A stretch of DNA of 64,000 nt from an uncultured virus (IMG/VR IMGVR_UViG_3300046167_000912) (lineage: Duplodnaviria > Heunggongvirae > Uroviricota > Caudoviricetes): the IMG/VR virus record IMGVR_UViG_3300046167_000912. One strand, 5' to 3'. A program made the translations under genes and the position numbers. Numbering within the stretch: position 1 is the stretch's first letter; each line of letters opens with the position of its first letter. Shown piece by piece: positions 8,854 through 25,334 of this stretch. The notes below the pieces were generated by a model, which made no database searches, had not been told where the DNA came from, and was given only the letters and a program-made list of their open reading frames with translations.

Positions 8854-9922
8854 GGTTCACCTCCTTAGCCTTTCCGAGCCACACTTGGTTCACGGGGCAG
8901 TATCCTTCGCATCTCGACACCAAACCATCAAGAGGGTTCTGGTGGTTATGTGCGTCTTGGCAGACTAACAAAACTTGACAGACTCTCTCCGCCGCGTAAG
9001 ATGCCGTAGGTGCGTGTATAAAGTCCTCACATGCCTTAGTAAGAAATACCTGTACTGCATTGGGGTACTCCTCTCTAACAAGGTTGGTCATGGGTACGAG
9101 AACTGTCTTATCTCCTTTACTGATAAGAAGGAAGTCATCGCCTCGGGCGACGGAGAAACACCCAATGAGAGTGCCTCCCCTTTTAGGCGTCACTTGCAGG
9201 TTGAGCCTCTCAAAATCATAGTCCGAGGGATCTACATCCAACACCTCAATATCATCTAAGTAGAAGCTGTCCTCTAAGATCTCGTCGAGAGAAACCTCTT
9301 CATTGAGAGTCTCTACCGCCTCTTCAGTGAGAGTCTCTACCGCCTCTTCAGTGAGAGTCTCTACCGCTTCTTCAGTGAGAGTCTCTACCGCTTCTTCAGT
9401 GAGAGTCTCTACCTCTTCAGTGGGAGTCTCTACCTCTTCAGTGGGAGTCTCTACCGCTTCTTCAGTGGGAGTCTCTACCGCTTCTTCAGCAGGAGTCTCT
9501 ACCGCTTCTTCAGCAGGAGTCTCTACCGCTTCTTCAGCAGGAGTCTCTACCGCCCCCGACTTCCAAGAAATAGATCGGGTGATCGCTTGTACAAGTAGCA
9601 GGTTCTCCACCCCATGTTGAAGAAATGCTTCAGTGGGGGTATCCTTAGTCTGTACCCAACCGCCTTCTATAGCGGAGTAGAAGGCTCTGGAAGGGGATTC
9701 TACAAGCCCCTTCTTTTTCAAGGTAAATAAGGCTTGGGTGATGTTCGCATAGAGCTTGTCAGGGTCATGCTCATATACGGTAGATTTCGCTATTTCCGCT
9801 ACCTTTTTAGACATAGCGATGTACTCCTCAACCAATGCCTTCTTCTTGACGGGTTTGGGCGAACGGGTGAGGAGTAGGTAGGTGTTGTTTTTTACGTTCT
9901 TAAAGTAACTGAGGTTCTTCAT
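8846..9922 (-). CDS. Hypothetical protein with acidic tandem repeat (possible N-terminal winged helix)
   Basis: 358 aa; EEAVET(P/L)(A/T) repeats; QALFTLKKKGLVESPSRAFY resembles a wHTH end. Confidence 0.75.
   Translation of the reverse strand: MKNLSYFKNVKNNTYLLLTRSPKPVKKKALVEEYIAMSKKVAEIAKSTVYEHDPDKLYANITQALFTLKKKGLVESPSRAFYSAIEGGWVQTKDTPTEAFLQHGVENLLLVQAITRSISWKSGAVETPAEEAVETPAEEAVETPAEEAVETPTEEAVETPTEEVETPTEEVETLTEEAVETLTEEAVETLTEEAVETLTEEAVETLNEEVSLDEILEDSFYLDDIEVLDVDPSDYDFERLNLQVTPKRGGTLIGCFSVARGDDFLLISKGDKTVLVPMTNLVREEYPNAVQVFLTKACEDFIHAPTASYAAERVCQVLLVCQDAHNHQNPLDGLVSRCEGYCPVNQVWLGKAKEVNHV
9306..9553 (-). repeat. In-frame 24/21-nt tandem repeat
   Basis: About 10 units of GAGTCTCTACCGCTTCTTCAG(T/C)nn on the plus strand. 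Confidence 0.9.
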
Positions 9923-10458
9923 ACGGGGTTTCCTCCTGTGTCTCTACAGACGGTTTCGTCATAAGGGCGTACAAGGTGTCGGGTGTATATTGGTAAGTTA
10001 AGGTTTACTTCAATGCATCGGCGGATACATCCAAGCTGGTTATTCGGCTTGCGGAGAGGGTAATGTCCTTGGATCACTTCACCTCTGAGGTAGTATGTGC
10101 CTTCTTTGTCTAGGAAGAAGGGCGAACCGTTCTTCCTAGTCAGACGATTACTGCGGTTTGGGTTGTAGGGGTTGCCTTGAGGAGACAGTGACATCTTAGC
10201 TGTTGTCACCAAGCCGCGAGGCCCAAAGACGACCTTGTTGACTTCACGCGGTGTCGCATCTGGATAAGGGTAGTCTGATGAGTCCCGCAAGGTGTCATTG
10301 ATGAGCTGAGTTACACTCTCTAGTGATTGATGGTTAGCCCAATCCTCGAGGAGTGCGACCCGCCGTTGGAGAACGTCGCGATAAGAGGAGTTGATCCTCA
10401 AGGTGAACAGGTAATCTTCACGTAAGTTCCTGCACTCAACGATAGGGTGATTAAGCAC
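9919..10458 (-). CDS. Hypothetical protein
   Basis: 179-aa ORF, GGAGG SD, overlapping neighbours. Confidence 0.7.
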   Translation of the reverse strand: MLNHPIVECRNLREDYLFTLRINSSYRDVLQRRVALLEDWANHQSLESVTQLINDTLRDSSDYPYPDATPREVNKVVFGPRGLVTTAKMSLSPQGNPYNPNRSNRLTRKNGSPFFLDKEGTYYLRGEVIQGHYPLRKPNNQLGCIRRCIEVNLNLPIYTRHLVRPYDETVCRDTGGNPV

Positions 10459-11218
10459 GGAGCACCTCCACGATACGATCTACCATCTTAACGGAGATCT
10501 CTTCTGCAGAGTTGCCTTCGATCCCATTAGGTAATCCTCGACCATCCACCCCAAGTCCAATTCCTACGAGGGTGACACCTTCTCCTAAGGCTTGAAGTCG
10601 GAGTGATTCAAGGTACTGCTTCTCACGACACTGTCCATCAGTGAGGAAGAAGGCGATACGGTGTGTCACATCATCCATGCGAAGAGCCATGTCGATAGCA
10701 GACACAGCATACGAGATTAAGCTCGTACCTCCACGAGGTCTGTAGCTAAGGAGTGGTTCGAGGTAAGCGTCCTTCCAATGCATAGACTCATCAATCGCGA
10801 CTGAGACGTGAGGGCAGTTTGGGGAACTCGCTGAGTTATTTGAGTATACATGATTGAACCGAACAATGCCCGAAGACGACTTGATCCCAAGTGAGTCCGC
10901 GAGGCTATGTATACCTCCCAACAGGTAGCAGATCTCAGCCCAACAAGAGGTATGCCTACCTCCGTTTAATGATGTGCTATGGTCTGAGGCTAGGGCGAAG
11001 CCCGCTTTCACCTTTTTCTCAATACGCCTCTTCGTGAATAGGCGGTGGTCTAAATGACCTTTCTCTAAGCCCACATATCCCTGAGCGATTCTGCGGCGGT
11101 TGAGGGTTACGCCCTCACGCCAATACTGATTGCTCCTGTCTATGTCTTCTAGGGCTCGTCGTAGCTTGTTCTTAGTCTTTACCAAGTTTTGTTTTACTGT
11201 TCTCAATCTCGGATTCAC
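10451..11218 (-). CDS. vWA (MIDAS) domain protein, CobT C-terminal-like
   Basis: DHSTS (DxSxS), RGGT, FFLTDGQ, LVGIGLG. Confidence 0.85.
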   Translation of the reverse strand: MNPRLRTVKQNLVKTKNKLRRALEDIDRSNQYWREGVTLNRRRIAQGYVGLEKGHLDHRLFTKRRIEKKVKAGFALASDHSTSLNGGRHTSCWAEICYLLGGIHSLADSLGIKSSSGIVRFNHVYSNNSASSPNCPHVSVAIDESMHWKDAYLEPLLSYRPRGGTSLISYAVSAIDMALRMDDVTHRIAFFLTDGQCREKQYLESLRLQALGEGVTLVGIGLGVDGRGLPNGIEGNSAEEISVKMVDRIVEVLRA

Positions 11219-12507
11219 TTCAACACCAACTTCCTGTAACTGATATTTTCATTGTTGGGTACATATATCTTGTGCCCAAATTTCTTCTCCACTATCTTAA
11301 TGTTCTCCTCCATCGCAGAGGAGGGATCCATCGCTTCTCCATCTCCTTCGAGGAGGGATGCGATCTTTTCAAGACCCAGAGAACCGTCTTTACCTCCTTC
11401 AGAGGTGGCTTGGTCGGAATCCCCACTTGAGTTTCCCCCCTCTGAGTCTTCATCTGAGTCTTCATCTGAATCCTCACCTGAACCCCCACCTGAGTCTTCA
11501 TCTGAGTCTTCATCTGAATCCTCGCCTGAATCCTCGCCTGAACCCCCGCTTGAGTCTTCATCTGAATCCTCACCTGAACCCCCACCTGAGCCTTCATCTG
11601 AGCCTTCATCTGAGCCTTCATCTGAATCCTCGCCTGAACCCCCACCTGACTCCTCGCCAGACTCTTCGCCTGACTTTTTATTTTTACGATTTGCATTCTT
11701 GTCTTCGGGGTCTTTAACAAGGTCTGCAATTTCATTGAGAAGCTTTAGTCCGCAAGCGAGAGGGAGGTGTGCGGTGTCTTCGAGAGCACCCTCCTTCAAA
11801 ACCTGTGACCAGATGGGCTCTAGTTTTTCTACGAGGTCGCGTGCCTCTTGGCTATACTCTTGATAAACTTTCTCAGCCGCCTCATCTCTCCAGCCCTTCC
11901 CTTTATCTCGAAGAGCCATGAGGAAGTCACCCGCGAAGGAAGTCCCCCTCCCCTCACTTTCGAGTTTATGCACCCAGCGTTGGATAGCAAAGAAGTCAGG
12001 GACAGAGGCTGGGTACTCCTTACCAACCCAACGCTCAAGGCGGATGTCGGCGAGGAGGTTGACCCATTTGTGTAAGTTTGCTCTGCTGTAAACTTGAGGC
12101 TTTAGCTTGATGTGCTTCACAATCTTCTTATTGAATTCGAACTCGGGGGGATTGGGGTGACCTGCTCGATCTGCGATGGCGTGACCTACTTCGTGGCGAC
12201 CTCCGCCACGCGACGCCGCGAGTGATAGGTCACAGATCTTCAAAACTGACTCCGAAGGAGTGTATAGAGTGACATCGCGGAGGTCTGCGGATCTATGCCA
12301 AGGCTGAGAGCCTCGTTGTCTCCAGACGTTGTCTGCTGGAGTAGACATTATGTGTCGGGTGTATCCCAACCACGGAAACTCGGCTAAGATTGCAAAGCCC
12401 GACCCTTGCTGCATTCGGTACGTGAAATTTTCGGGGAGTGTGCTGAGCAACCCTAAGAACGCCCCCTTCATCGAGGCGTACTTTTTTCTACTTTCATATG
12501 GGTTCAT
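11215..12507 (-). CDS. CobT N-terminal-like protein (HExxH motif + acidic linker)
   Basis: RHEVGH, NLLADIRLER, long G/S/E/D linker; start moved to ATG 12507 after AAGGA. Confidence 0.8.
   Translation of the reverse strand: MNPYESRKKYASMKGAFLGLLSTLPENFTYRMQQGSGFAILAEFPWLGYTRHIMSTPADNVWRQRGSQPWHRSADLRDVTLYTPSESVLKICDLSLAASRGGGRHEVGHAIADRAGHPNPPEFEFNKKIVKHIKLKPQVYSRANLHKWVNLLADIRLERWVGKEYPASVPDFFAIQRWVHKLESEGRGTSFAGDFLMALRDKGKGWRDEAAEKVYQEYSQEARDLVEKLEPIWSQVLKEGALEDTAHLPLACGLKLLNEIADLVKDPEDKNANRKNKKSGEESGEESGGGSGEDSDEGSDEGSDEGSGGGSGEDSDEDSSGGSGEDSGEDSDEDSDEDSGGGSGEDSDEDSDEDSEGGNSSGDSDQATSEGGKDGSLGLEKIASLLEGDGEAMDPSSAMEENIKIVEKKFGHKIYVPNNENISYRKLVLK
11441..11672 (-). repeat. In-frame 12-nt-based acidic repeat (GGSGEDSDEDS)
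   Basis: Reiterated CTGAGTCTTCAT / CTGAATCCTC units on the plus strand. Confidence 0.85.
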
Positions 12508-12532
12508 TTTTTTCCTTTCTTTAATATTAACA

Positions 12533-12607
12533 CTTATCGAAAGGAGCGAGGGTACACCTGTTTTTTTTAACAAGATAAAGAGGCGACCGTGACCTTGTTT
12601 TGATAAG
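12533..12607. promoter_or_regulatory. Back-to-back promoter-like motifs GTGWC-N14-GATAAG
   Basis: Minus GTGTA-N14-GATAAG (12533-12557) and plus GCGAC-N14-GATAAG (12583-12607) between divergent operons; similar motifs elsewhere. Confidence 0.5.
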
Positions 12608-12648
12608 TGGGGTATCAAAAAGAATTAACATCAAAGGAACAAGAGAAC

Positions 12649-13794
12649 ATGAAGACAGATATTACCCAACACTTAGCGATGACATCCTACTATGGTGTAC
12701 CCGTAGTAAAAGTTCCAGCCACCAAACAAGAACTCATAAATGGGGGATCTGCAGTGATCGAACACAGCCCTTATTATGTAGAGGATGAAAAGCCGTATAA
12801 CGCCTTACAGAAGGCTACGCTCATCATCAAAGACAATCATATTCAAGTGATTGGGCCTACGGGGGCAGGTAAAGATGAATGGGGTCGTCAGCTCGCCGCG
12901 AAGACAAGTCGTCCCATCGCACTCTTCAACTTTAACGACGAGGGTGACACCAGCGGGTGGGTGACTCGCACCACACTTGTAAAAGAGGATGGTGTCACAA
13001 TCACCGCTGAAGTTGATGGATCTCTGAGACGAGCCTGTCAGGGCTTAGTGATCTACCGAAGACTCGGTAATATACTCCCAGGCGTGGATACAGAGATAGA
13101 CCTCGACGCACTCATCGCTGAAATGCAGAGTCACGATTGGAGGGTAGAGCATATTGAGGAAGATGTGTATAAGATCACTATCCCCTTCATCATTCAGATC
13201 CAAGACGCAGACCGAGCTTGCCTTGAGCCTCTTCGTCAAGCTTGCGAGTTGAACAAGGAGATGTTGACAGATCCTGTGACAGGAGAAGCTTTCCCTGTTC
13301 TTCGAGGCACACGCTTTATCTTCACAGGTAACTCGGGGGTTGATGGTGACGGAGGGCGAGGCATGATTGTGAAGCAGAAGGATGCTTCTATGGCAAACCG
13401 TATGTCCGCGATCCGCGTATCTCACCCCTCAGAGGATGTTGAGAAACAAGTTTACAGCCGACAATTCCCACAGCTCACTGATTACGAAATCGGGGTGGTC
13501 ACTCGGTGTACCATCGCACTGAGGGAGGTTTGCATTCAAGAGAATCTCGCTCTGGATGTATCTATGCGTCAGGGACTCGCATGGATCTCTCACGCAGTGA
13601 GTTTTCAGAAATTCTACGGATGTAAGTTCATGAGGGCTCTCAAGGAGAGTCTCGACTCAATTACGGGTCACTTCATGGAGGTTGAGAACGCTCAACTCTT
13701 TAAGTCTGCAGTCGCTGTCTTCCTCGTCAATGAGGATCAGGCTCAATCAAACCCGGATCCTAAGATCCAATCTTGCCCTATCGACAACACTTGA
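12649..13794 (+). CDS. MoxR/CobS-like AAA+ ATPase
   Basis: Walker A GPTGAGKD, Walker B-like IIQIQDADRA, sensor FIFTGN, DASMANR, SMR; adjacent vWA partner; start ATG 12649. Confidence 0.85.
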   Translation: MKTDITQHLAMTSYYGVPVVKVPATKQELINGGSAVIEHSPYYVEDEKPYNALQKATLIIKDNHIQVIGPTGAGKDEWGRQLAAKTSRPIALFNFNDEGDTSGWVTRTTLVKEDGVTITAEVDGSLRRACQGLVIYRRLGNILPGVDTEIDLDALIAEMQSHDWRVEHIEEDVYKITIPFIIQIQDADRACLEPLRQACELNKEMLTDPVTGEAFPVLRGTRFIFTGNSGVDGDGGRGMIVKQKDASMANRMSAIRVSHPSEDVEKQVYSRQFPQLTDYEIGVVTRCTIALREVCIQENLALDVSMRQGLAWISHAVSFQKFYGCKFMRALKESLDSITGHFMEVENAQLFKSAVAVFLVNEDQAQSNPDPKIQSCPIDNT

Positions 13795-13807
13795 GACAAG
13801 GAAGACA

Positions 13808-14395
13808 ATGTTTGACTTTGATTGCACCAGAATACCTGACACGCTCTACGTCAAAGAGGTCGGAGACCCTGTCGAGGTTGCCACAACTAGCCAAGTCCGA
13901 GATGTAGATGCCCCACAAGGACTCTACATCTCGGACACTCCAGAAAAGGAATCGGTCGTCGAAGACACCGCCTCGTACCCAGCGACAGTAACAACCACCC
14001 TATATAGCTCAATCACCCCTATAATGATTGAGGGGTGGGTCAAAACCACTACTTGCTACAAGAAGCATAGTACCAAATCATCAATCTGTAAGACCTGTCC
14101 CATTCAAGCACAGTGTCGAACAGTAAAAACTGTGTCTCTCAATGCAAAGAACAAGAAGAAGAGAGAAATTAAGCAACTTGAAGAGAGAGCCTCGAAGGTT
14201 GGGTTCTCTCTCAAAGGGGTTAAACTCCCAGATCTAGAAAACAATATAACTTTCTATGATTGCAAGTTTGAGATCCCCTGTGTGTTATCGGGGAAGCCCA
14301 TTGTACTAGGTGAGTCCTTCGTACATATCAAAGGCTTCGGGGCTGTGAAGGCAGATACCCTAGATATACTCAAAGACTATAAGGAAATGAAATGA
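13808..14395 (+). CDS. Cys-rich hypothetical protein
   Basis: C-x10-CKTC-x5-C motif; start ATG 13808 after AAGGA. Confidence 0.7.
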   Translation: MFDFDCTRIPDTLYVKEVGDPVEVATTSQVRDVDAPQGLYISDTPEKESVVEDTASYPATVTTTLYSSITPIMIEGWVKTTTCYKKHSTKSSICKTCPIQAQCRTVKTVSLNAKNKKKREIKQLEERASKVGFSLKGVKLPDLENNITFYDCKFEIPCVLSGKPIVLGESFVHIKGFGAVKADTLDILKDYKEMK

Positions 14396-15093
14396 AAGAC
14401 TTAGTACAACAAGCGATTGACACTCATAAAGCAATCTACGGCGTAGAACCTCCCTATGAACCATATAGAGGGGCGAGTGACCACCCTTTTGAAGGGATTC
14501 ATCCAACCCTCATGCAAGAGCTAACGAACGCGACAGTAGCAAAGTCCTTTGAGAGGAAATTCAAAAGAGAACTCAACAGAAGTCACAAGGCAGAGGGAGA
14601 CTTCAAAGTTGGCGACTTTGTTAGAATAAAGAGAATGAGTCGAGTGTCCTCTCCTATGAAATCAGGGAAGATCTTATTTATAGAAGGTGAGTACTACGGC
14701 GTAGTTGACCTGAATAGTATAAAAAAACCTTGCCTTACAGTGGTTCGAGCCAGCGGGGAGGTTCTCGCGAAAAGAACTCCCGCTCACGGTGAGAGAGACG
14801 CATGGGATGAGGCACTTTCGTTAAGCCAATCTAATCTCCAATCCGAAGTTGAAGTCACGAAGTGGAAAAAAAGGTCAGATATCCATCACCACTCCGAAGA
14901 AGACCTCGCCATATATGTACACCATGAGATTTCAAACCTAAAATACCTGTGGGTAACTCATATCTACCCTAGTAATATTCTCAAGGTGAGGCTAAACTCA
15001 TCTAAAGACAGAAAAGATGGGTGGAATGCAGAAAAGTACATCTGGGCAAGTAAAGTGCGGATTGCAGAAGAGTCTAGTACAACAAGCGATTGA
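14392..15093 (+). CDS. Hypothetical protein (shares N-terminus with next gene)
   Basis: LVQQAIDTHKAIYGVEPPYEPYRGASDHPFEG; SH3/KOW-like FKVGDFVRI. Confidence 0.75.
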   Translation: MKDLVQQAIDTHKAIYGVEPPYEPYRGASDHPFEGIHPTLMQELTNATVAKSFERKFKRELNRSHKAEGDFKVGDFVRIKRMSRVSSPMKSGKILFIEGEYYGVVDLNSIKKPCLTVVRASGEVLAKRTPAHGERDAWDEALSLSQSNLQSEVEVTKWKKRSDIHHHSEEDLAIYVHHEISNLKYLWVTHIYPSNILKVRLNSSKDRKDGWNAEKYIWASKVRIAEESSTTSD

Positions 15094-15661
15094 CACTCAT
15101 AAAGCAATCTACGGCGTAGAACCTCCCTATGAACCATATAGAGGAGCGAGTGACCACCCTTTTGAAGGGGTGCCTGAAGAGCTCATAAAAGATCTCCTCA
15201 ATCGAGACAAGGTCGATAGACACCTCAAACAGTATAAGAAGGGACTAGCCGAGAAATATAAAGCAATCGGCGTGTACTCCTATGTGACTATCAGAGGCGA
15301 CACACAAGAAGGACTTATGTCTCTACAGTGTACGGCAAAGTGGGTTCTTGTTTTTAGCCTTCCACAAGGATGGGTTAAATTCTACCCCAGATCAAAGATC
15401 GTATCCCGTGTACCAGAGCCTAGTGAAAGAGACCGATTCTCTGACACACTCGATAAGACCATACATCATGGTCATGAATACTTAAGTGGGAAAAGAGTCC
15501 TTGACATCCATAGCTTCAACGAGGGTGTCATCATAGAGTCCTTCTCTAACCCTCTAGGTTATACAGATCCAAGCCTCCCCATAATCCCCCTCTCTGGAGT
15601 CGTCGATTTCAACACTCATACTGAGCTGAGGTCAATTAACGCAGTTAAACTCTTACCCTGA
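15062..15661 (+). CDS. Hypothetical protein (duplicated N-terminus)
   Basis: 95-nt near-perfect repeat 14402-14496 / 15075-15169; start uncertain (TTG 15062). Confidence 0.65.
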   Translation: MQKSLVQQAIDTHKAIYGVEPPYEPYRGASDHPFEGVPEELIKDLLNRDKVDRHLKQYKKGLAEKYKAIGVYSYVTIRGDTQEGLMSLQCTAKWVLVFSLPQGWVKFYPRSKIVSRVPEPSERDRFSDTLDKTIHHGHEYLSGKRVLDIHSFNEGVIIESFSNPLGYTDPSLPIIPLSGVVDFNTHTELRSINAVKLLP

Positions 15662-15702
15662 GCCTGACATTCACATTAAAAGTGAGTTTCAGGCTCTTTT
15701 TT
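15660..15702 (+). terminator. Rho-independent terminator
   Basis: GAGCCTGA...TCAGGCTC stem followed by a T-run. Confidence 0.75.
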
Positions 15703-15725
15703 GTGTGCGGGTTTAACATTATTTG

Positions 15726-15822
15726 TAGTTTATTTATGCCTAAGCCTATACGGTTTCCTTTTATGGTGTTAAGGTGTTGGTTTCACGCCAATACAGCTTA
15801 GACAACCTGAAAGATAGGCTTA
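15726..15822 (+). promoter_or_regulatory. TA-N5-TYTAT motif and structured leader before putative structural operon
   Basis: TAGTTTATTTAT 15726-15737; TAAGCCTAT 15741-15749 pairs with ATAGGCTTA 15814-15822. Confidence 0.6.
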
Positions 15823-15828
15823 ATCACT

Positions 15829-16380
15829 ATGATCAAGGAAAAAATAGCGACGGGGTTTCCGCATAAGACCGCAGTCTCAACGCCACACCAAGTCGCCATA
15901 GCGAGGGGTGTAGATAAGGGTATTAGGAGCTGGCTAAAGACCTTTGTTTTTGTAGGTCGGGGGGTAGGTCTCATAGGTTCAGGTGTGGCTTCTGGTATCT
16001 ATGCAGTTCCTTACAATGCAGGCTTAATGGAAGTGGGTTTAAAGGCGGGGGGGATGAGGGGATCTTTACTGAGTGATCTAACAGTGAGCTTAACGAGAGG
16101 TGTGAGTGGTGTGTACCAACTGAGTGGTGTGAGCTCTGTTGTGGGTTCAGGTAGTTTCACGGGTAGCGGTCAAGGTATGGGGTCGGAGGAGCTTCTATAT
16201 GTGAGCATCAGGGGATGTTTATTGAGCGAGGGGGTAGTGGGTAGTTTTGATATGAGCAGGGGTATTAGTAAAGGTGTAATTAACCTAATGAGGTCAGGTA
16301 TAGTCAAACAGGGTTTAATCAAGGGTGCGGTAGGATCTGCGTCCTCATCAGGTCGTGTGGCCTTGAGCATAGGAGTATAG
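15829..16380 (+). CDS. Gly-rich putative virion protein
   Basis: 183 aa, first gene of the operon containing the 2983-aa ORF. Confidence 0.55.
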   Translation: MIKEKIATGFPHKTAVSTPHQVAIARGVDKGIRSWLKTFVFVGRGVGLIGSGVASGIYAVPYNAGLMEVGLKAGGMRGSLLSDLTVSLTRGVSGVYQLSGVSSVVGSGSFTGSGQGMGSEELLYVSIRGCLLSEGVVGSFDMSRGISKGVINLMRSGIVKQGLIKGAVGSASSSGRVALSIGV

Positions 16381-16382
16381 AG

Positions 16383-19300
16383 ATGATACTTGATGTACGT
16401 AGCGGAGAAGACAACAGTAAGGATACGGGTCTCAGTCTTAGGCGTGTGGATGGTCATGTGAGCTTTATTGGGGGAGAGCCTGTACGTATGGGGAGAGTAT
16501 CTCACGCGGCGGTAGGGGATTTAGGGGACGTGTTATTTTTGGCTTCGGGAGATGGTGATATTGGGGTTACTTCTAGGCCTGTGACTTTTAAGAAGCTTTT
16601 TACTCTTGGTGTTAAGCATTATTACGGCACGGGTTTAAGGGATGGTATTGTTAATGAGGTTCGGGGAGAGGGGGGGCAAGTTCTGAGGTTATTATATGGG
16701 GGGAGTGTAGTGGAGAGTGAGACTGATGATTTGGTGCTGGGGGTTGGAGATGTGGGGTTGGGGTTTTGGTGGACTCGTAATGATGTTGAGCGAGTCCGTT
16801 TTGAGCATAGGGGAGCGTCTTGGTCTTTACTGAAGGGAGGGGCAGGTGAGGACGTAGGTGTTGTAGGAGGGGAGCTAGAGTCTTTAAACAGTCTGGATGG
16901 AGTATTGAGGGTTGGAGATCGGGTATATGACATTGGGGTTGATATACCTGTAGAGGAGGATGACAGTAGGCTTTCAGAGTTTGTAGCCATTGTGTTGTCA
17001 GGTACGGGTGAGTTGTTGTTTTCGGGTTCTGAGGTTGATCTTGGGGATCGGGTGATTCACCTTAGAGGTTCAGGGGCAGTTAATGGTTGGGGGGGGTTGG
17101 TGAGCGGTGATTATTTATCGCCTAGACCTTCACCTTGTGAGCGTCCGTTATTGAGGGATGGACACAGGGGGTACATGGAGGTACGCCGTGTAGTTGATTT
17201 CAGTGCAGAGGTTGATTTTGGTGTTGTGGAGTTGAAGGCGAGTGGTGAGATTAAGGTAAGTTCCTTGTTGAGCGGTGAGTTATCCTACGACGGTCTAGTG
17301 CTGGGTCATCTTGTATTGGATGATGGTCACGACTTGGGGGGTGCGATAGGGTCTGTGGACATACCTGTTGACATGTTGCCTGACGGTACGGGTTTGAAGC
17401 CTGTGGGATCAGCTACGAGCTTCAGGAATGACGGTAGTGGTCTTGTGTATGCCTATAGGAACAGTCGTCATTGGGTATCGGTAGGCGGTGAGTTATTGGA
17501 GGTTTTGTTTGTTGACGAGTTGCCGCGTAGATTAGACCGTAACTTTGGTTATGTTGAGCGTGGTAGTCGTCGGGTCATACTGAACGCATCTTGGTCGGGT
17601 GAGGTAATTTCGGGAGGACACAGGTTATATTTAGGAGAGGTGTCTTGTGTTCTTAATCGTGTTGTATCTCACTTGTCCTCTAAGAATTGGGGTGTAGATT
17701 CAGGTGTCTTCACTTTAACGAATGGTGAGGAGATCAGCTTTGACAAGGTGTCTGTGACAGGTGCTGGAGTTAGCCTTGAGGTCGGGCATCTTGTATTGGA
17801 TGAGGGTTTAGAGGTCTCAGCCTTGAGTGATATCTCTGTACTGAAGGGTGTGGGTTTGATTGCGGGGTCATCGACGGGCTTAGTTTTGGAGCTTGGCGGT
17901 GGTACGGTGTCGGGTTATTACTCTTACGAGGAAGAGTCTGTAGGAGATGTGAGTGGTACAGACTATCAGCTTTTAACCTTTGACCCGCGTCAGGATTTCT
18001 CTAACAGTTTCAAGGTTGGAGACAAGGTGCTTATAGAGAACGAGGACTACATTTATGTCTCTGACCCTAGAGGTTTTCGTTGGGTTGTGTCTCAGCAGTT
18101 ATCTGGAGAAATCCGAGAACCCACCTCGAGGTTGTTCTTAGGTCACGGGGTGATGTCGAACACAAGTTCTTTGACATTGAAGCGTGAGTTGGTTGAGGGT
18201 GGGATAGAGAGTGTGGATTACACAGAGGGTGTTGGCTATAACCTAGAAGGTAGTCAACTCACCTTGAAGAGAGATGTAGGTGAGGAGTTGACCCGCGGTG
18301 TTGGTGTTGGTGAGGGTATGGAGTTGATAGGGGGCGACGTAAGTCTTATCTCTAGTGGGGATTGGATCAATTGGCAAGGTTACTTCTACAAGGTTGAGTC
18401 TTTGAATGGGGTTGTGGTATCTCTCAGCGGGTCTGTGAGCCGAGGTTCGGGTATTTGGATTGCATATAAGGGCTATCGTGAGGGTGTTCTAGGGTTGGAG
18501 ACCCCAGACTCTTCTAGGCTATGTGGCGAGGTGTTTTCGGAGATTCGAGCTGGGGGTGAGGTTGTCGTTTACAAGGTATACAACAATCTTGCACTTGGGT
18601 CATCGGGGCTGGGTTCAAGTCATATTTTAAGGAGCGGTGACATAGACGTTCCGCTTTATATATTGAGGGAAGAGAATGTAGAAGCTCCTCAATATGTTTT
18701 CGCGGAGGGTGACGCTCATGTCACTTCTGGCAGTTACGTCTTGAGGGTTGGGGGGGTTGATTATCAGCAGGGGGTAGCACAGGGGATCTACCGCTTTGTA
18801 GTTGAAGGGGATCGCTTTGTATTTCAAGTAGAGGACTCAGGTATTTGGTCAGAGGATGCTTCTTGGGTAGAGGGGGATGTGATCCTGAGACGTGTTCCGA
18901 GGGTTGGTTTGCAGGATTGGGCGGAGGTTAGTCTTACAGGAGATGATCTTTCTAGTCCTTTTGAGAGCTTTGATCAGTTTTTAACTTCAGAGGAGGGTGT
19001 TACTTTTAACAAGAGTTCAGGGGCGATTAGTTTCGCAGAGCCTTTAGAGAGAGGTCTGGGTGTTGAGGTCTCTTATGTCGGTTTAGACGGTGTGCGTGTA
19101 CTAGAGACTTTGATCTTTTCGGTGCTTGGTGAGGTGATGACGAGAGAGTCGGAACGATCCTATGTGTTTAATGGTGTAGGTCTAGAGGTAGAGCTAGAGG
19201 TGACACCTAGTGTCTACGTCAACAGCGAGTTGATCTCTGGTCACCTGTACAGCTTTGGGCCTTCAGAGGTGATCTTTAAGTTTGACGTTGAGGCAGAGGC

Positions 19301-22300
19301 TCAGGTTAAGATTTCCTATGGTGTTTTGAATACGCTTGGGGGCGAACAGGCGGTTCGTCTCTCAGGGTCAATCTTGAACACCGCCTTTAAGATTGGTCGG
19401 GGAGAAGGAGACATTGTAACACCGAAGGATTTGCGTGGTGAGGTTGAAGTGGGAGACATTGTTAAGGTGGGCAACCACATCTTTAACATTACCTCTGTAT
19501 CATCGAACCTGCTGGGAGTGAGCCCACCCGCGAGATTTGGTGTCGAGAGTAGTCGTCTGCAACTCTTAGCCGTGCCTGTGTTGACTTATGATGGGCAGGC
19601 ATATACAAACAGCTTCCTGTCTTTGATCGGTTGTGAGTTGAGATCTGCTCCGAATAGCTCAGATATCTATATCAAGGGTGACTTCAGAGATCACTTTTTA
19701 GCAAAATCTATCCTCATAGTGAGTGGTGTTCCTTATCAGGTCTTCCAAGTCAGCCTCACGGATGAGGGCTATACACAAATCACGATAGATGGATTCTCTA
19801 AAGGTCACTCAATAACCTCTACCGCAGAGGGGGAGTTGGCGGTGTCTTATCGCCCGATCTATGAAGGGGGGGAGACTGAGTTATCCTTAACTACAGGTGT
19901 GATTTCCAACTCTGATTTCACTCTTATGAGGTTTGACCATACTGTTGGTCGCGGTCAACAACTCTATTTTAATAAGGACTTCAAGATAGATCTAGAGTCA
20001 GGTCTGATCTCTCTCCTTACGAGTCGGGTGAGTGCTTATGTCTCTTACTACCTATACCACACAGCAATATCCACCCTGAGTCCTCAATCTTTGTATGGGG
20101 GTAGAGTCTCGTACCCTTCTTATAATATAACCTACAAGCGAGCGACACCGCCAACTCAGTACGAGGGGCTTGAGTTGTTGAGTTCTGCTGTTGTGTATGC
20201 ACCCGATTCCTTTTATGTGAGGTCTGTTGAAGTAGGGGAGTATGCCTCTGAAATATCATCTCGCCTATTAGATCGCCTCAAGAGTGTGAATGGCAACGGT
20301 GCTAAGCGAGAGTTCACAGACACGAACCCTAGAGGGAATTCTATAGGGTTCTTTGATTTGATCGCGGAAGACGCCGTATCTAGGGAACGGATCTCACTTT
20401 ACGAAGGGTATATAAAGCCTGTAGAAGATCTTGTTTCTACGAGCACGGGTCATGTAGTGGGAGACTTGGATGGGCGTTTTAAGTTTGAGGTTGAACAGAG
20501 TGGTGATTGGGGCGGTGCTGGCCTAGAAGATCCTGTGACGAAAGAGATACAGCCTCGCTTTATCTTCCAAGAGATACTCGACCCTTTGAATCCGCTAGAC
20601 ATTTACCCCGATCCTCTTGGCGTGATCAAAGTAAACGGGCTGACACCAGATATAGGTCGGCTTCAAGACTTGATGAGGAAGCAGTCTTCTCTAGTGAGGA
20701 ATGAGATCGACGACTATGTTTTAACAAAAACGAACACCGTCGCTGTGGTCAACTCTTTTTTTGAATATGCCGTTGAACTCTTACCTGTGTACCAGCAACT
20801 TTGGAAACCTTCTAGGTTTAGTAGGTTGTTCCCGACTCAGACAAGGGTTCAGACTCTTCGATTAGGAGGTGATCTTTTTGCGGATCGAGATGGTAGAAGT
20901 ACAAACGGCCAGCCTATAGCCTATGTAGAGAATGGGTCTTTAGGTCAGATCGAGAATGTCACCTCTCTCACACTGAAGAAGAGACCTGCTCGCTTCCGAG
21001 TGGTTGACTATTCTTCAAAAGGCTTCGGCGACATTAGTGGTTTGAGTATAGGGAAGCCTACCTTCTTGGTGTCCGCAACCCCCCTCGACGAATTCCCTTT
21101 GACGGCACAAGGACTACCAGACACCGCAAGGTTCTTATCTCAAGGCGGTGATCTTCCTGATGCTTCTTTTGGTTCTTTAGACCTCACATTCAGAGGCTTG
21201 AGTATAGGGTCACACGTAGCCTTGAGTGTAGAATCCGACTTGTACCCTTTAATGGATGTGTCCTCAGACTCAGAGTTACCCGATTCGTTTGGACTCGTAG
21301 TGAACCCTGCCCCTCGATATGTGAAAGTTGAGGCTGTCGTATTAGGGTGTCTTGTCATCCTAGAGGGGAGCTCATTCAATATAGAGGTAAACTCTGTGTC
21401 TTTGAATGACCTGAAAATCAAGAGAGGTGATACCTTAGTGGAGTCTCTTGAGAAAGACTTAGACGATGACTCTGCTTCACTCTCTTACAGGGTAGGCTCA
21501 GATGTCGGTCTTAACTATGCCACGGGTGAAATCATAGACATCAGTCTCCCTAGCTTGAGTGATCCGAGTTTCCCTTTCCAAGAGATCTCAGGTCAAAACG
21601 TACCTCCACCCCTTACCGCTCTCGAAGGTATCGCGGGCTTCACATATGGATCAGTTGAACCTTTCACATACCCTGCACTTGAAGGGTTAGCCTTAGACGA
21701 CGCTGGGGATGAGGGTATTCCTTATCTTCGTAGGTTGAGTGAGAGAGTCATTCTTGCGGAAACCCCTAAGCTACAGGCAGAGTTGGTTAGAGAGGCTCTG
21801 AATGCATCCTCTGGTCTTGAAGAGTCTGTGTACCCTGATGAGGTGAGAGACTCTTCAAGCACCATTTCTCAAGGTGTAATAAATATCAGTACAGATGTCT
21901 CTAGTTTAACAGGTCTTGCAGAACAAGTGCCTAGACAGGGAGACCTCATCCTCATCTCTCCTGACACAACCAACACACAAGGAGCTTCTTCTACGGGAGT
22001 GTTAGAACTCGCCTTATGTAATGAAACAGAGATCTCACCTCCTCACTTTCAGGCTTCTACTGTAGGCAACTCTTTTTCTTTAACAAACCTAGCCGTCGAT
22101 CTTGAGGGAGACCCTTCAAAGGGTGTGACTGTAAGAGAATCCCTCATCTTCAATGCTGTAACAAATGAGTGGGACTCTTCACAGTCTGTCTTTACCTTTG
22201 CGGGATACTCGAAGGTAGATAGCATTATTGATAAGATACTTAATGACGGAGGCTCTCTGACGATCCACCTTCATGACTACAACGACACCTCTGAGGTATT

Positions 22301-25300
22301 TAAGGTTATCCTCTCATATGACGGTTCTTGGTCTATGAAGACGGTGAATAAGAGCGGCGTAGAGGTCATCGCCGCGAATACGACAGTGACAGGCTATGCC
22401 TTAGATTCCATCGAGATCACACAAGACCCAATACCTAACCCTTTGACGGTTGTGGAAGAACCTTTATGGCCTGCAAACACACATGAAACTTGGTTATATA
22501 ACGGAGTTTCGATTTCTCACTTCTGGGGTGCGATGGTTGGTTTTAGGTTCTTCACGTCGCAAGGCAGTGACAGAGTCGCGGAGATCTCCTTGTCTGGAAC
22601 CTACCCTGCACTTTACCTAGACTATAGGCTTGATGTTGAGTTCGGGCTTTCGTCTTCAAATTACATCAACTCGAACCGTTTAGACTTTCACACGGACTTG
22701 AACTTCAACACTTGGGTGTACAGTTCAACGAGCCCTTCAGTTCTCCTAGAAGCTGGAGGTGGTGTGATACCTCTTAACGTATCTTCTTTAATAGACATAC
22801 TGTCTTCAAAGATGCAAGTGAACGAGATCAATGGGGTGAATACGCATTTTGTATCCTCCGATATAAACACCAACCAGATTATGGGCTACAGTCCTTACTC
22901 TCTCGAAGGTGACTCGAACATGATACTAGGAGATCATGTGTTAAGGTTCAAGAGCCTACATGGAGTCAATAGACCCTCTGACTCACTCTCTTTATTTGTA
23001 GGCTCAGAAGTCAATACAGACGGGAATATCTGTTCAGGTTTAGGTTCTCTAGGTAGTTACACTCAGTTCAACACGGAGGATAAAAAGAAAGGTGTTGTCC
23101 AAGGACTCACTTTGTCTCAAGGGTCGATTTCTCATGTGGAAGAAGGTGACGTTATCTATTTGAACTCAGGGCATAGCTCTGGAACACACCGAGTGAAAGC
23201 CGTGATAAAAGAGGCGGTAGACGAGACTGTTAGTTTAGTATTAGGTGACGCGGTGCTCCCTGTCATTTTCCCGAAGGTAGTCAGCAGCTCTCTGAATCTA
23301 GACGGGTCTGTTACGATTCTAACAGACTCCGACAACCTGTCTAACCTGTTCTTCTCTACAGGCTTAAACCTAATCTCTATCATATTGAACAGCAACTACT
23401 TAACCGCACCCTCTTCTAGTCAAGTAGGTGTGTACGACCAAGCCTTCAGTACCTCATTTGTCCGTGTCTCTTATGACTCGATCTCCTCTGACTCTTTTAC
23501 CGTGTCATTAGACGCAGAGTATGCTGACGGCACCGCCGTTTCGGTTACGGATCTTCCAAGTTTGCTGGGTGCTGGAGGGCAGTTGATAGCGGGCATTCAC
23601 AAAGTCCTTTTCCGTCCGCTGAAAACAGGGTTGTTTAGATCAGAACACCCCATAGACGTAGACTCTAACTTTGAGTTCAGCCTACAGGTCGCGGGCGGGA
23701 TCGCAGGCAACTCTGCAGAATTGCAAACAGGTGAAGACTTTGATGGTAATGCAGTTCTCCTTGTACCTAACTCCTTCAATATTGGGGGTCAATGGTTTAC
23801 CTCATACCCTGAGATACTAGATGGTGTAGGCAACTCATACGGTCTGTCTTTTCTACTTCCTCAAGATGCCTTTCAACTGAGGCTGTCTTGTGATCAAGGT
23901 ATTGTGTTGGATAGGGCTTTCCCTCGTCTCTGGAGAAACTATCAGGGTACGACCCCGACGCTCTTTAACGACGGGAGTTCACAAGTTATCTCCCTTGAAG
24001 ATTACACCCTCACAGACACCCCAGCTTGGCCATACTATGAAGAAGTCACTTTCGTTGTGCGAAGACTGAGGAGGTTCACTGACCTCTTCAGCAAGCTGAT
24101 CTATAACCTAGAGGGATATAGGTACTTGTACGAGAAGAGATCTGGGCAGGTTGAGTCAGTGACAAGAGATGGGGATCTGATCACAGTTACACCTCTTAAG
24201 ATAGAGGGTCAAGCAACCAACGTAGGCGAGATACCTGAAACAATCTCTGTGGGGGATGATGTTGTTTGTTACACCGCATTGGGGGAGGAGAGCCTGAAAA
24301 TCAGAGTTTCTGAAACTTTGGATAACTCCTTTAAGGGTAGGGTAGTCTATGGTGAGGCAAACGCTTCTACCTCTTGGTTTGAAGTGATTGTTAAAGAAAA
24401 CCTTGTACCTCAGATACAGTCTTTTGATTCTCTGGTCTCACATGGGTTTGAAGTCTCCTATGCCACTCAAGCTGTGCTGGGTATTGAAGTCTCTGCGGAA
24501 AATGTCCTTACAGATAACAACACAGACTTCACCCAGATCCTATCGGGGGATGATTTGTATTACCTAGTGATAGACCCTCAAGGGCTGTTACAAGGAACTG
24601 CGACAGAGTACGGTCAGCCCGCGATGGGAGATCCTGACTCTTTGAGTCTTCTAGACGACAACAGAGGTTCTTATCTTGTTACCTCTTTTACTACGAACAC
24701 TCTGACTGTGGCATTCAAAGGTAGAACCGACTTCTTACCCGATGTTAATGGACTTAAAGATAATCCTTTACGAGTCACTTCGGGGGTCGATAATGGAAGC
24801 TATCTCGGCTCATCTAACTCGGTACACCCTTTTTCTTATCGGTTATTAAAGAAGAAGTCTTACCTAGATCAGGGACTTGCTGAAGATATCTTGTTCTTCC
24901 GAGAGAGGACACTCTCTTGGGTAGAGAAGATCCGCAAGTTTAATGATCTTCCCTCAGAGGCATTGTCTTGGACGGACTATGAGCAAGGGGATTACATAGA
25001 GGTTGTAGGTGAATACGACCACACGCACCCTTCTAATGACTTATTAGTCTCCACCTTGCTGGGGGACGGTTCTTATCCTTTCAGCTCGGATCTCCTATCT
25101 GTAAATGATCGTAGGTTGCTCATTGAAGACCCCCAGATGGTAATGGAAGGTCACTCGTCACTTGAGGGTATGCCTTCCTTGCTAGAGAGTGGTATTTCTT
25201 CTATGGGAGCTAGGGGCAAGAGAGACTCTTGGATAAATGCCCGCACTAACCAGATTGAAGGCACGTTATCTAGGCTGAGTAGAGTAGACCTCGAAACCCT

Positions 25301-25334
25301 GAAGACACAATCTTTGGAGGATATTAATGAGTGA
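16383..25334 (+). CDS. Very large (2983 aa) putative virion/tail-baseplate structural protein
   Basis: Uninterrupted ORF, AGGAG SD, acidic beta-rich composition, recurrent motifs such as DFKIDLESGLI / FNKSSGAISF typical of tail proteins. Confidence 0.7.
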   Translation: MILDVRSGEDNSKDTGLSLRRVDGHVSFIGGEPVRMGRVSHAAVGDLGDVLFLASGDGDIGVTSRPVTFKKLFTLGVKHYYGTGLRDGIVNEVRGEGGQVLRLLYGGSVVESETDDLVLGVGDVGLGFWWTRNDVERVRFEHRGASWSLLKGGAGEDVGVVGGELESLNSLDGVLRVGDRVYDIGVDIPVEEDDSRLSEFVAIVLSGTGELLFSGSEVDLGDRVIHLRGSGAVNGWGGLVSGDYLSPRPSPCERPLLRDGHRGYMEVRRVVDFSAEVDFGVVELKASGEIKVSSLLSGELSYDGLVLGHLVLDDGHDLGGAIGSVDIPVDMLPDGTGLKPVGSATSFRNDGSGLVYAYRNSRHWVSVGGELLEVLFVDELPRRLDRNFGYVERGSRRVILNASWSGEVISGGHRLYLGEVSCVLNRVVSHLSSKNWGVDSGVFTLTNGEEISFDKVSVTGAGVSLEVGHLVLDEGLEVSALSDISVLKGVGLIAGSSTGLVLELGGGTVSGYYSYEEESVGDVSGTDYQLLTFDPRQDFSNSFKVGDKVLIENEDYIYVSDPRGFRWVVSQQLSGEIREPTSRLFLGHGVMSNTSSLTLKRELVEGGIESVDYTEGVGYNLEGSQLTLKRDVGEELTRGVGVGEGMELIGGDVSLISSGDWINWQGYFYKVESLNGVVVSLSGSVSRGSGIWIAYKGYREGVLGLETPDSSRLCGEVFSEIRAGGEVVVYKVYNNLALGSSGLGSSHILRSGDIDVPLYILREENVEAPQYVFAEGDAHVTSGSYVLRVGGVDYQQGVAQGIYRFVVEGDRFVFQVEDSGIWSEDASWVEGDVILRRVPRVGLQDWAEVSLTGDDLSSPFESFDQFLTSEEGVTFNKSSGAISFAEPLERGLGVEVSYVGLDGVRVLETLIFSVLGEVMTRESERSYVFNGVGLEVELEVTPSVYVNSELISGHLYSFGPSEVIFKFDVEAEAQVKISYGVLNTLGGEQAVRLSGSILNTAFKIGRGEGDIVTPKDLRGEVEVGDIVKVGNHIFNITSVSSNLLGVSPPARFGVESSRLQLLAVPVLTYDGQAYTNSFLSLIGCELRSAPNSSDIYIKGDFRDHFLAKSILIVSGVPYQVFQVSLTDEGYTQITIDGFSKGHSITSTAEGELAVSYRPIYEGGETELSLTTGVISNSDFTLMRFDHTVGRGQQLYFNKDFKIDLESGLISLLTSRVSAYVSYYLYHTAISTLSPQSLYGGRVSYPSYNITYKRATPPTQYEGLELLSSAVVYAPDSFYVRSVEVGEYASEISSRLLDRLKSVNGNGAKREFTDTNPRGNSIGFFDLIAEDAVSRERISLYEGYIKPVEDLVSTSTGHVVGDLDGRFKFEVEQSGDWGGAGLEDPVTKEIQPRFIFQEILDPLNPLDIYPDPLGVIKVNGLTPDIGRLQDLMRKQSSLVRNEIDDYVLTKTNTVAVVNSFFEYAVELLPVYQQLWKPSRFSRLFPTQTRVQTLRLGGDLFADRDGRSTNGQPIAYVENGSLGQIENVTSLTLKKRPARFRVVDYSSKGFGDISGLSIGKPTFLVSATPLDEFPLTAQGLPDTARFLSQGGDLPDASFGSLDLTFRGLSIGSHVALSVESDLYPLMDVSSDSELPDSFGLVVNPAPRYVKVEAVVLGCLVILEGSSFNIEVNSVSLNDLKIKRGDTLVESLEKDLDDDSASLSYRVGSDVGLNYATGEIIDISLPSLSDPSFPFQEISGQNVPPPLTALEGIAGFTYGSVEPFTYPALEGLALDDAGDEGIPYLRRLSERVILAETPKLQAELVREALNASSGLEESVYPDEVRDSSSTISQGVINISTDVSSLTGLAEQVPRQGDLILISPDTTNTQGASSTGVLELALCNETEISPPHFQASTVGNSFSLTNLAVDLEGDPSKGVTVRESLIFNAVTNEWDSSQSVFTFAGYSKVDSIIDKILNDGGSLTIHLHDYNDTSEVFKVILSYDGSWSMKTVNKSGVEVIAANTTVTGYALDSIEITQDPIPNPLTVVEEPLWPANTHETWLYNGVSISHFWGAMVGFRFFTSQGSDRVAEISLSGTYPALYLDYRLDVEFGLSSSNYINSNRLDFHTDLNFNTWVYSSTSPSVLLEAGGGVIPLNVSSLIDILSSKMQVNEINGVNTHFVSSDINTNQIMGYSPYSLEGDSNMILGDHVLRFKSLHGVNRPSDSLSLFVGSEVNTDGNICSGLGSLGSYTQFNTEDKKKGVVQGLTLSQGSISHVEEGDVIYLNSGHSSGTHRVKAVIKEAVDETVSLVLGDAVLPVIFPKVVSSSLNLDGSVTILTDSDNLSNLFFSTGLNLISIILNSNYLTAPSSSQVGVYDQAFSTSFVRVSYDSISSDSFTVSLDAEYADGTAVSVTDLPSLLGAGGQLIAGIHKVLFRPLKTGLFRSEHPIDVDSNFEFSLQVAGGIAGNSAELQTGEDFDGNAVLLVPNSFNIGGQWFTSYPEILDGVGNSYGLSFLLPQDAFQLRLSCDQGIVLDRAFPRLWRNYQGTTPTLFNDGSSQVISLEDYTLTDTPAWPYYEEVTFVVRRLRRFTDLFSKLIYNLEGYRYLYEKRSGQVESVTRDGDLITVTPLKIEGQATNVGEIPETISVGDDVVCYTALGEESLKIRVSETLDNSFKGRVVYGEANASTSWFEVIVKENLVPQIQSFDSLVSHGFEVSYATQAVLGIEVSAENVLTDNNTDFTQILSGDDLYYLVIDPQGLLQGTATEYGQPAMGDPDSLSLLDDNRGSYLVTSFTTNTLTVAFKGRTDFLPDVNGLKDNPLRVTSGVDNGSYLGSSNSVHPFSYRLLKKKSYLDQGLAEDILFFRERTLSWVEKIRKFNDLPSEALSWTDYEQGDYIEVVGEYDHTHPSNDLLVSTLLGDGSYPFSSDLLSVNDRRLLIEDPQMVMEGHSSLEGMPSLLESGISSMGARGKRDSWINARTNQIEGTLSRLSRVDLETLKTQSLEDINE

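What the first reader, a model, noticed from the sequence alone, without database searches (positions are those of the whole stretch)
15900..19500. Abrupt, decaying G/T strand skew running into the giant ORF
Seen: near 15900 the plus strand flips from C/A-rich to strongly G/T-rich (hand count 16621-16740: 52 G vs 8 C). The bias fades within the same gene (23281-23340: 12 G vs 17 C), leaving the N-terminal part Gly/Val-rich. Gene orientation does not change across the flip. Inference: a local mutational or selective gradient marking a replication origin, packaging/terminase site or genome-end boundary.
Basis: partly seen in the sequence, partly recalled or inferred. Interest (0 to 1): 0.7.

Follow-up and report, generated by a model that had tools for sequence, protein, structure and literature searches.

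The report
Strand-bias scars at phage genome ends
In a family of giant bacteriophages, one DNA strand is loaded with G and T for a few kilobases on each side of what looks like a long repeat at the chromosome ends, enough to reshape a large protein; this may record how these viruses restart and duplicate their ends, and may let ends be found from sequence alone.

Summary
The skew is real: it starts at 15,903, fades by about 19,300-19,600 and is strongest at silent sites (4-fold G/C 119/39 versus 176/178, p=5e-8). It is half of a pair. A mirror patch runs leftward on the minus strand from about 6.9 kb. Four near-complete relatives (290-376 kb) carry the same divergent pair, 7.5-29 kb apart, each patch starting at a conserved non-coding element. 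Contig depth between the patches is 1.5-1.9-fold higher in 3 of 4 runs, pointing to a long direct terminal repeat of about 8.5 kb. In jumbo phage XacN1, whose 66-kb repeat is physically mapped, a blind scan puts the top two windows at the two repeat boundaries, with the same outward polarity. PA5oct fits partly and K weakly; T5, SPO1, phiCbK and CBB do not. Best reading (0.5): 3' ends made at the termini prime 3-5 kb of strand-asymmetric synthesis. The shift is GC-neutral, so cytosine deamination alone fits poorly. It has moved about 1,000 residues of a 2,983-aa protein toward Gly/Glu/Val. No raw reads were available, so the termini are inferred.

The parts
15903..19300 (+). Patch 1: G/T-rich, C-poor plus strand pointing away from the putative terminal repeat; fades between about 19.2 and 21 kb depending on the model
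   Evidence: same place in 11 of 11 loci at 34-50% protein identity (7 distinct) and in L106
15660..15806 (+). Boundary B element: terminator-like hairpin plus T-run (15660-15703), conserved GGTTTAA core (15710-15716), AT-rich box (15729-15737), long imperfect hairpin ending in ACAAC (15765-15806)
   Evidence: read from sequence; alignment of 7 genomes; stem before ACAAC in 8 of 8, z -0.9 to -3.5; no sigma-70 promoter or terminator called here; no Rfam match
15829..16380 (+). Conserved 183-aa Gly-rich ORF in which the skew begins; function unknown
   Evidence: tblastn-type match in 4 of 5 relatives, the fifth (G005) has a 190-aa ORF at the same place; no Pfam or PHROG hit; Atlas best 0.87, viral hypothetical, a lead only
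16383..25334 (+). 2,983-aa protein, probably a virion structural protein (inferred from size and clade conservation); N-terminal ~1,000 aa shifted toward Gly/Glu/Val and away from Ala/Thr/Pro/Asn/Gln
   Evidence: 13 full-length homologs at 39-54%; composition tests; no Pfam, PHROG or PDB-sequence hit
7200..15800 (.). Putative long direct terminal repeat, collapsed to one copy (limits uncertain: left 6.3-7.3 kb, right 15.1-15.9 kb); small variable genes in two divergent blocks, with a weak inward-pointing skew
   Evidence: contig depth 1.5-1.9x in 3 of 4 runs; inward slope -0.18+-0.033 over 108 ORFs of 5 genomes
7180..7300 (-). Boundary element A1, highly conserved non-coding motif with two ATTGAAAA copies 11 bp apart; read inward it resembles the B core in the same orientation
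   Evidence: alignment of 5 genomes; 9 exact viral-contig matches; a PWM from A1 ranks B 2nd in G003 and 8th in G002, and outside the top 8 in the window, G004 and G005
6795..6900 (-). Boundary element A2 (G-run hairpin, then GGGTTTGATTTTG), where patch 2 becomes strong
5100..6900 (-). Patch 2: mirror-image G/T-rich minus strand pointing away from the repeat; its tail toward 3 kb is confounded by pentapeptide-repeat genes
   Evidence: third-position G+T 0.62-0.71 in three ORFs; 1-kb bins z -3.3 to -4.4
10451..13794 (.). Divergent vWA-like (10451-11218,-), CobT-like (11215-12618,-) and MoxR/CobS-like AAA ATPase (12607-13794,+) genes inside the repeat
   Evidence: phrog_249 E 1.5e-6 and phrog_1576 E 2.5e-4; the vWA, CobT and MoxR labels are recalled from motifs and come from no call; same block in L005

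Best explanation
The window comes from a jumbo phage with a long direct terminal repeat of about 8.5 kb (about 7.2-15.8 kb), collapsed in the assembly. The two G/T patches are evolutionary footprints of DNA synthesis primed from 3' ends created at the two terminus positions. After infection, the 3' end of each chromosome end invades the other repeat copy (phage RecA) and extends outward into unique DNA. Over a 3-5 kb tract the outward-pointing strand is displaced and re-made before an ordinary coupled fork takes over. The partner 3' ends or nicks at the same sites prime inward synthesis that duplicates the repeat, giving the weaker inward skew. Because the ends are fixed, the same strand is hit every cycle, and a GC-neutral G-gain/C-loss builds up and alters the encoded protein. 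Shown: silent-site strand skew, pairing, polarity, conservation, independence from gene direction, protein drift, and the same signature at mapped ends of XacN1. Supported but indirect: the repeat in this phage. Inferred: 3'-end priming, the role of RecA, and the chemistry.
For: Divergent pair is the two strongest G+T clusters in 4 of 4 near-complete relatives. After correcting for gene orientation they rank 1-2 in G002-G004 and 1 and 3 in G005. Two partial records also hold both patches. Inside versus outside contig depth: X3 23.8/23.0/21.2/17.9 vs 12.5/13.2/12.1; X6 21.4/19.4/23.3/18.9 vs 13.0/13.8/13.3; X4 12.3/15.6/13.9 vs 7.6/8.1/9.5/9.2. X4 and X6 are not flagged as possible sources. Doubled coverage is the accepted sign of a packaged terminal repeat (PMC7111523, PMC3556154, passages). 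XacN1: top windows 65.5 kb (z 7.2) and 317.5 kb (z -5.3) against boundaries 65,875 and 318,796; antisense genes in the patch are reversed (GC3 skew -0.76, -0.59), and inside genes show inward skew. An antisense ORF in G005 patch 2 is also reversed (-0.45). Patch-1 length (step fit 3.1-4.8 kb) does not scale with repeat length (7.5-29 kb). Inward slope t=-5.5. RecA, PolA, DnaB, RecD-like, UvrD and clamp-loader domains found among 96 of 214 G002 ORFs scanned; RecA in G003. 3'-end-primed D-loop synthesis is established for T4 (PMC6337909, passages).
Against: Run X1 shows no doubling (inside 6-9, outside 4.7-11). Depth is one figure per contig, and the tool warns it is no copy number. The contig straddling B gives mixed values (12.6, 9.4, 19.8). 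No read-start piles, as only contigs were available. Of 7 phages with mapped or annotated long repeats, only XacN1 is clear. PA5oct only partly met a prediction written beforehand: its top window is the inward arm (z 4.7), the outward windows are weak (z 2.9; residual -0.04). K is weak; T5, SPO1, phiCbK and CBB show nothing, although CBB encodes RecA. A simple invasion D-loop would also expose the outward strand just inside the end, where the skew is reversed, so a second process must be added. 12 of 21 inward-pointing genes still have negative coding skew. C>T alone fits the patch poorly (deviance 164; C>T+A>G 52; C>G alone 20). SNP density is not raised in the patch (21/3,401 bp vs 46/5,735). 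L097/L099 are G-rich on the inner side of A1 too.
Confidence: 0.5

Rival explanations
1. RNA-primed origins at the repeat boundaries. A promoter and structured leader at each element make a persistent R-loop that primes outward leading-strand synthesis (T4 origin or T7 end-promoter style). The G-rich non-template strand is made by exposure, or selected because G-rich RNA holds the hybrid.
For: Patch 1 begins about 100 nt after an AT-rich box and a hairpin+ACAAC kept in 8 of 8 genomes. Most genes in both patches are transcribed outward. GC-neutral G-gain/C-loss with T/A unchanged suits selection for a G-rich strand.
Against: Antisense genes inside patches follow the strand, not their own transcript. 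The A elements show no matching hairpin+ACAAC. 3-5 kb is long for an R-loop (own knowledge). It does not predict the inward arms. No RNA run holds the region, so transcription is untested.
Confidence: 0.22
2. Packaging-coupled processing without strand invasion: terminase nicks or cuts at A and B, and displacement synthesis or resection plus gap filling re-makes the strands whose 5' ends lie at the cuts.
For: Explains the butterfly polarity at each boundary and the inward slope. In PA5oct the inward arm dominates. A1 and B share a same-orientation core in G003.
Against: Repeat duplication needs synthesis inside the repeat, yet the outward patches are the stronger ones in this clade. The A1/B likeness is weak or absent in 4 of 5 genomes.
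Confidence: 0.15
3. No terminal repeat: a pair of replication origins on a circular or permuted genome, with the raised depth coming from re-replication or from related phages sharing the region.
For: X1 is not doubled; contig depths sum over organisms. Polarity matches the leading-strand G>C rule (own knowledge).
Against: Depth changes as a step: contigs next to the region equal distant ones (13.2, 12.6, 12.1 in X3). There is no genome-wide skew. XacN1 ties the signature to mapped ends.
Confidence: 0.06
4. Transcription-associated mutation downstream of two strong promoters.
For: The coding strand is the G/T-rich one in most patch genes.
Against: Antisense genes are reversed. The patch ends inside one 9-kb gene. 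No other operon in 290-376 kb shows it as strongly, apart from G005 133.5 kb.
Confidence: 0.04
5. Selection on the protein for a Gly/Val-rich N-terminal domain.
For: All 13 close homologs share the Gly/Val-rich N-terminus; it is more conserved than the C-terminus among L006/L008/L009 (0.84-0.88 vs 0.69-0.77 nt identity).
Against: The skew is strongest at silent sites and spans unrelated genes. Distant homologs of the same region lack the drift (G+V 0.190 vs 0.249) and the DNA skew.
Confidence: 0.03

Closest known systems
Long direct-terminal-repeat phages (T5, SPO1, phiCbK, K, CBB, PA5oct, XacN1)
   Same: A block of small variable genes with about 1.5-1.9x depth. XacN1 has the same outward and inward G/T polarity at both mapped boundaries.
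   Different: The patches here are stronger and longer (first 2 kb: GC skew 0.32-0.69, G+T 0.59-0.73 at 10 of 10 boundaries, versus 0.18-0.22 and 0.56-0.58 in XacN1). T5, SPO1, phiCbK and CBB show none, K weak, PA5oct partial. Termini are not mapped here.
T4 recombination-dependent replication (UvsX-primed D-loop synthesis; PMC6337909, passages)
   Same: A 3' end invades a homologous duplex and primes synthesis with a displaced strand; this clade encodes RecA, DnaB and a clamp loader.
   Different: T4 ends are permuted (PMC3556154, passage), so no local scar is expected. This clade has a family A polymerase and apparently fixed ends.
Replication-linked GC skew in huge phages (PMC7162821, passages)
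   Same: The G-rich strand runs 5'->3' away from the start site.
   Different: That paper describes bidirectional or unidirectional replication patterns in about 30% of genomes each. Here the skew is confined to 2-5 kb tracts at two sites.
Mitochondrial displaced-strand gradient (recalled, no call)
   Same: Position-dependent C>T and A>G shift on one strand that alters protein composition.
   Different: GC-neutral here, and the best single-rate fit is C>G; two divergent tracts rather than one.
Huge phage LR745208.1 (485 kb)
   Same: Only hit in 50,697 annotated phages for the giant protein (27% identity); the giant gene is followed by an ORF of similar length.
   Different: No skew at its giant gene; only a weak flip near 42 kb.

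Membership tests
Long direct-terminal-repeat phage | About 2x virion DNA depth over one contiguous block | tested here: inconclusive
   1.5-1.9x in 3 of 4 runs, none in X1; contig-level depth only
Long direct-terminal-repeat phage | Fixed termini shown by read-start piles or end labelling | not testable with these tools
   all 24 listed runs are kept as contigs; table of begin/end places empty
Long direct-terminal-repeat phage | Conserved sequences at both repeat boundaries | tested here: met
   A1/A2 conserved in 5 of 5 and B core in 6 of 7 genomes aligned; that they are cut sites is inferred
Long direct-terminal-repeat phage | Repeat carries early/host-takeover genes | not testable with these tools
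   small variable ORFs seen; no RNA holder listed
T4-type recombination-dependent replication | Phage recombinase, helicase and clamp loader | tested here: met
   RecA E 2e-41, DnaB_C E 9e-18, clamp-loader subunit E 5e-27 in G002
T4-type recombination-dependent replication | Family B polymerase and circularly permuted ends | tested here: not met
   DNA_pol_A E 1.6e-63 and no family B hit among 96 of 214 ORFs scanned; patches at fixed conserved sites. Works like, not a member
Classical bidirectional theta origin | Genome-wide leading-strand G>C skew with one origin and one terminus | tested here: not met
R-loop-primed origin (T4 ori/ColE1 type) | Promoter and persistent RNA:DNA hybrid priming synthesis | not testable with these tools
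   AT-rich box and hairpin only; sigma-70 scan finds no site at the element
ssDNA cytosine-deamination gradient | C>T dominated shift with loss of G+C | tested here: not met
   4-fold (G+C)/(A+T) log2 odds -0.24 to +0.34 in 7 genomes; C>T-only deviance 164; equilibrium model on small counts

The most novel reading that the evidence does not exclude
A subset of long-repeat jumbo phages start replication and duplicate their terminal repeat by four short, 3'-end-primed, uncoupled synthesis tracts at fixed termini. This leaves a sequence-readable 'butterfly' of G/T strand bias, produced by an unrecognised GC-neutral mutational or selective process, that predicts physical genome ends and repeat length from an assembly alone and has rewritten about 1,000 residues of a virion protein.
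Probability: 0.4. Interest if true: 0.8.

Novelty: new variant of a known kind. Interest (0 to 1): 0.65.

Why it matters
How 10-66 kb phage terminal repeats are duplicated, and how replication starts from such ends, is to my knowledge still poorly understood. The four-arm polarity says which strand is displaced or re-made at each end and over what length (2-5 kb), which makes the question directly testable. It also gives a read-free predictor of termini for uncultured jumbo phages: it located both XacN1 boundaries blind, though it fails in four other long-repeat phages. And it is a clean within-gene case of mutation pressure reshaping a protein (Thr/Pro/Asn/Lys/Gln/His 0.149 versus 0.244 at aligned positions).

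Tried and rejected
No whole genome is held for the window; the nearest record G001 is a 41-kb fragment without the locus. Locus searches with the 830-aa neighbour and in prokaryote genomes found nothing. No RNA holder was listed, which is no evidence on expression. Terminase_6N found 0 of 3 records; TerL came from PHROGs. No tRNA, no Rfam match at the elements, no PDB sequence match. The MAFFT alignment of the hairpin is out of register, so no formal covariation count was made. The UNREST and parsimony spectra are saturated or tiny (7 C>T events) and only suggestive. Contig ends do not fall at A1 in the 9 matches. G007 lacks the giant gene, so its B side is unknown. The loose end at 10502 is, by eye, a short chance match to the giant gene near 23.7 kb. 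Four earlier-findings look-ups returned nothing. Nine paper searches listed no title or abstract describing this signature; most listed papers were not opened, and the library lacks most subscription papers. Supplements were not seen (Al-Shayeb skew notes, XacN1 Fig. S5, PA5oct PhageTerm report), and the first may bear on novelty. No structure prediction was run. T5, SPO1, phiCbK and K were examined only in 9-22 kb around each boundary.

Full report
OBSERVATION. The change point is 15,903, and the 16-19 kb bins stand 4-7 SD above 55 background bins. The skew affects all codon positions and is strongest at silent sites: 4-fold G/C 119/39 in codons 1-900 of the 2,983-aa ORF against 176/178 from codon 1201 (p=5e-8), and GAG/GAA 63/8 against 57/49. 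A linear fade to about 5 kb and a step at 3.1-4.8 kb fit about equally in 7 genomes. Upstream DNA is A-rich rather than C-rich.

WHAT THE WINDOW IS. It is part of a contractile-tailed jumbo phage: Baseplate_J is present, and the only hit among 50,697 annotated phages is the 485-kb LR745208.1. The giant protein has 13 full-length homologs at 39-54% and 5 distant ones at 24-27%. Relatives with DNA lie on IMG/VR contigs of up to 376 kb. No family or structure was found for the protein.

CONSERVATION. The patch sits at the same place in 11 of 11 loci at 34-50% identity (7 distinct) and in L106. It is absent from L001 and from the four near-identical loci L015/16/17/19 at 24%; L018 lacks the N-terminus and is uninformative. 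At aligned N-terminal positions the clade has G+V 0.249 and T/P/N/K/Q/H 0.149, against 0.190 and 0.244 in distant homologs. In the C-terminal part the values are 0.167/0.170 and 0.237/0.242 (P0016, G/V-rich throughout, was left out). The protein drift therefore follows the DNA bias.

IT IS A PAIR. The window holds a mirror patch on the minus strand from about 6.9 kb leftward. Whole-record profiles of G002 (312 kb), G003 (376 kb), G004 (297 kb) and G005 (290 kb) show no genome-wide skew. In 4 of 4 the two strongest G+T clusters are a divergent pair 7.5, 29, 12 and 24 kb apart, with the G/T strand running 5'->3' outward. With gene orientation removed they rank 1-2 in G002-G004 and 1 and 3 in G005. 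Partial records G006 and G009 hold both patches as well. An antisense ORF inside G005 patch 2 has reversed coding skew, -0.45. Inside the pair there is a weaker inward skew: over 108 heuristically called ORFs the plus-strand GC3 skew falls 0.18+-0.033 per half-interval after an orientation term. However, 12 of 21 inward-pointing genes remain negative.

BOUNDARY ELEMENTS. B (15660-15806) has a terminator-like hairpin, a GGTTTAA core, an AT-rich box and a long stem ending in ACAAC in 8 of 8 genomes (z -0.9 to -3.5). A has two conserved non-coding elements, A1 and A2; patch 2 strengthens after A2. A matrix built from A1 finds B in the same orientation at rank 2 in G003 and rank 8 in G002, but not in the top 8 of the other three genomes. 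L097/L099 are G-rich on the inner side too.

TERMINAL REPEAT. I laid 4 of 24 listed runs, all contigs. Depth between the patches is 1.5-1.9x the flanks in X3, X4 and X6, as a step; X1 shows none. X1 and X3 may be the source of this DNA. Packaged repeats give doubled coverage and replicating DNA flat coverage (PMC7111523, passages; PMC3556154, passages). The tool warns that contig depth is no copy number, and the contig straddling B is mixed, so the boundaries are loose.

CONTROLS. Seven phages with mapped or annotated long repeats were tested. For XacN1 (repeat mapped by coverage, PFGE and restriction; PMC5852040, passages), a blind scan of positions 1-320,000 gives top windows at 65.5 kb (z 7.2) and 317.5 kb (z -5.3), at boundaries 65,875 and 318,796; antisense genes are reversed and inward arms are present. 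For PA5oct (39,080-bp repeat; PMC7318152, passages) my prior prediction was only partly met: the top window is the inward arm (z 4.7) and the outward arms are weak. K shows a faint version. T5, SPO1, phiCbK and CBB show none.

MECHANISM. At each boundary the strands whose 5' end would lie at the terminus position are G/T-rich in both directions. This is what synthesis primed from the 3' ends made there would mark. Outward, a chromosome end invades the other repeat copy and extends into unique DNA; inward, the repeat is duplicated. G002 encodes RecA, PolA, DnaB, RecD-like, UvrD and clamp-loader proteins (96 of 214 ORFs scanned), and TerL lies about 110 kb away. 3'-end-primed D-loop synthesis is established for T4 (PMC6337909, passages; PMC7824862, passages). 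Tract length does not scale with repeat length, which suits invasion or displacement better than over-resection (inference). The chemistry is open. G/A and T/C both rise while G+C and T/A stay about level. An equilibrium model fits C>T alone badly (deviance 164), C>T+A>G better (52) and C>G best as a single change (20) (small counts). G.T mispairing on a re-made strand, or selection for a G-rich strand, remain possible. SNP density is not raised. Confidence: about 0.85 that the patches flank a terminal repeat, 0.5 for end-primed synthesis; R-loop origins 0.22; terminase-coupled processing 0.15.

KNOWN VERSUS NEW. Long repeats, recombination-primed replication and replication-linked phage skew (PMC7162821, passages) are known. 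Nine searches listed nothing describing local paired strand-bias tracts at phage termini; coverage of the library is partial and supplements were not seen. Four look-ups of earlier findings were empty. Verdict: real, conserved, a new variant of a known kind; interest 0.65.

Noticed in passing
window 14402-14522 and 15075-15195: 121-nt direct duplication (90%) giving two adjacent ORFs the same N-terminus; L005 has a similar paralog pair.
   Followed up: no
window 3-4357 and 35183-35557: Four pentapeptide-repeat genes, several with a shared upstream terminator and AT-rich box; G002 has at least seven such genes.
   Followed up: no
window 9246-9575 and 11423-11710: 24-nt and 12-nt tandem coding repeats inside the putative terminal repeat; strain L003 differs heavily in the second.
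   Followed up: no
L108-L130 (LR745208.1) near 42 kb and 349.5 kb: Weak strand flip near 42 kb (z -2.8 then +3.9) and a negative window at 349.5 kb, far from the giant gene; possibly this phage's ends or origin.
   Followed up: partly
G005 124-141 kb (L076, L077): A second, weaker divergent pair: 125 kb negative, 133.5 and 139.5 kb positive.
   Followed up: no
L012:8980-9300: In G005 the B element is expanded into degenerate tandem repeats that themselves turn from C/A-rich to G/T-rich across the boundary.
   Followed up: no
L097:4300-6000: Lineage in which the inner side of A1 is also G-rich, an exception to the polarity switch.
   Followed up: partly
G002 (L020, L021, L024, L027, L029, L032, L034): Methionyl-tRNA synthetase, actin-like Volactin domain, two type IB topoisomerases, UvdE, purine and pyrimidine synthesis genes, and an intein-containing TerL.
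   Followed up: no
window 46172-46813: Weak Cas1 profile match below the cut-off (E 0.0037); probably chance.
   Followed up: no
window 56414-60738: Sheath-initiator-like (below cut-off) and Baseplate_J genes, indicating a contractile tail.
   Followed up: no
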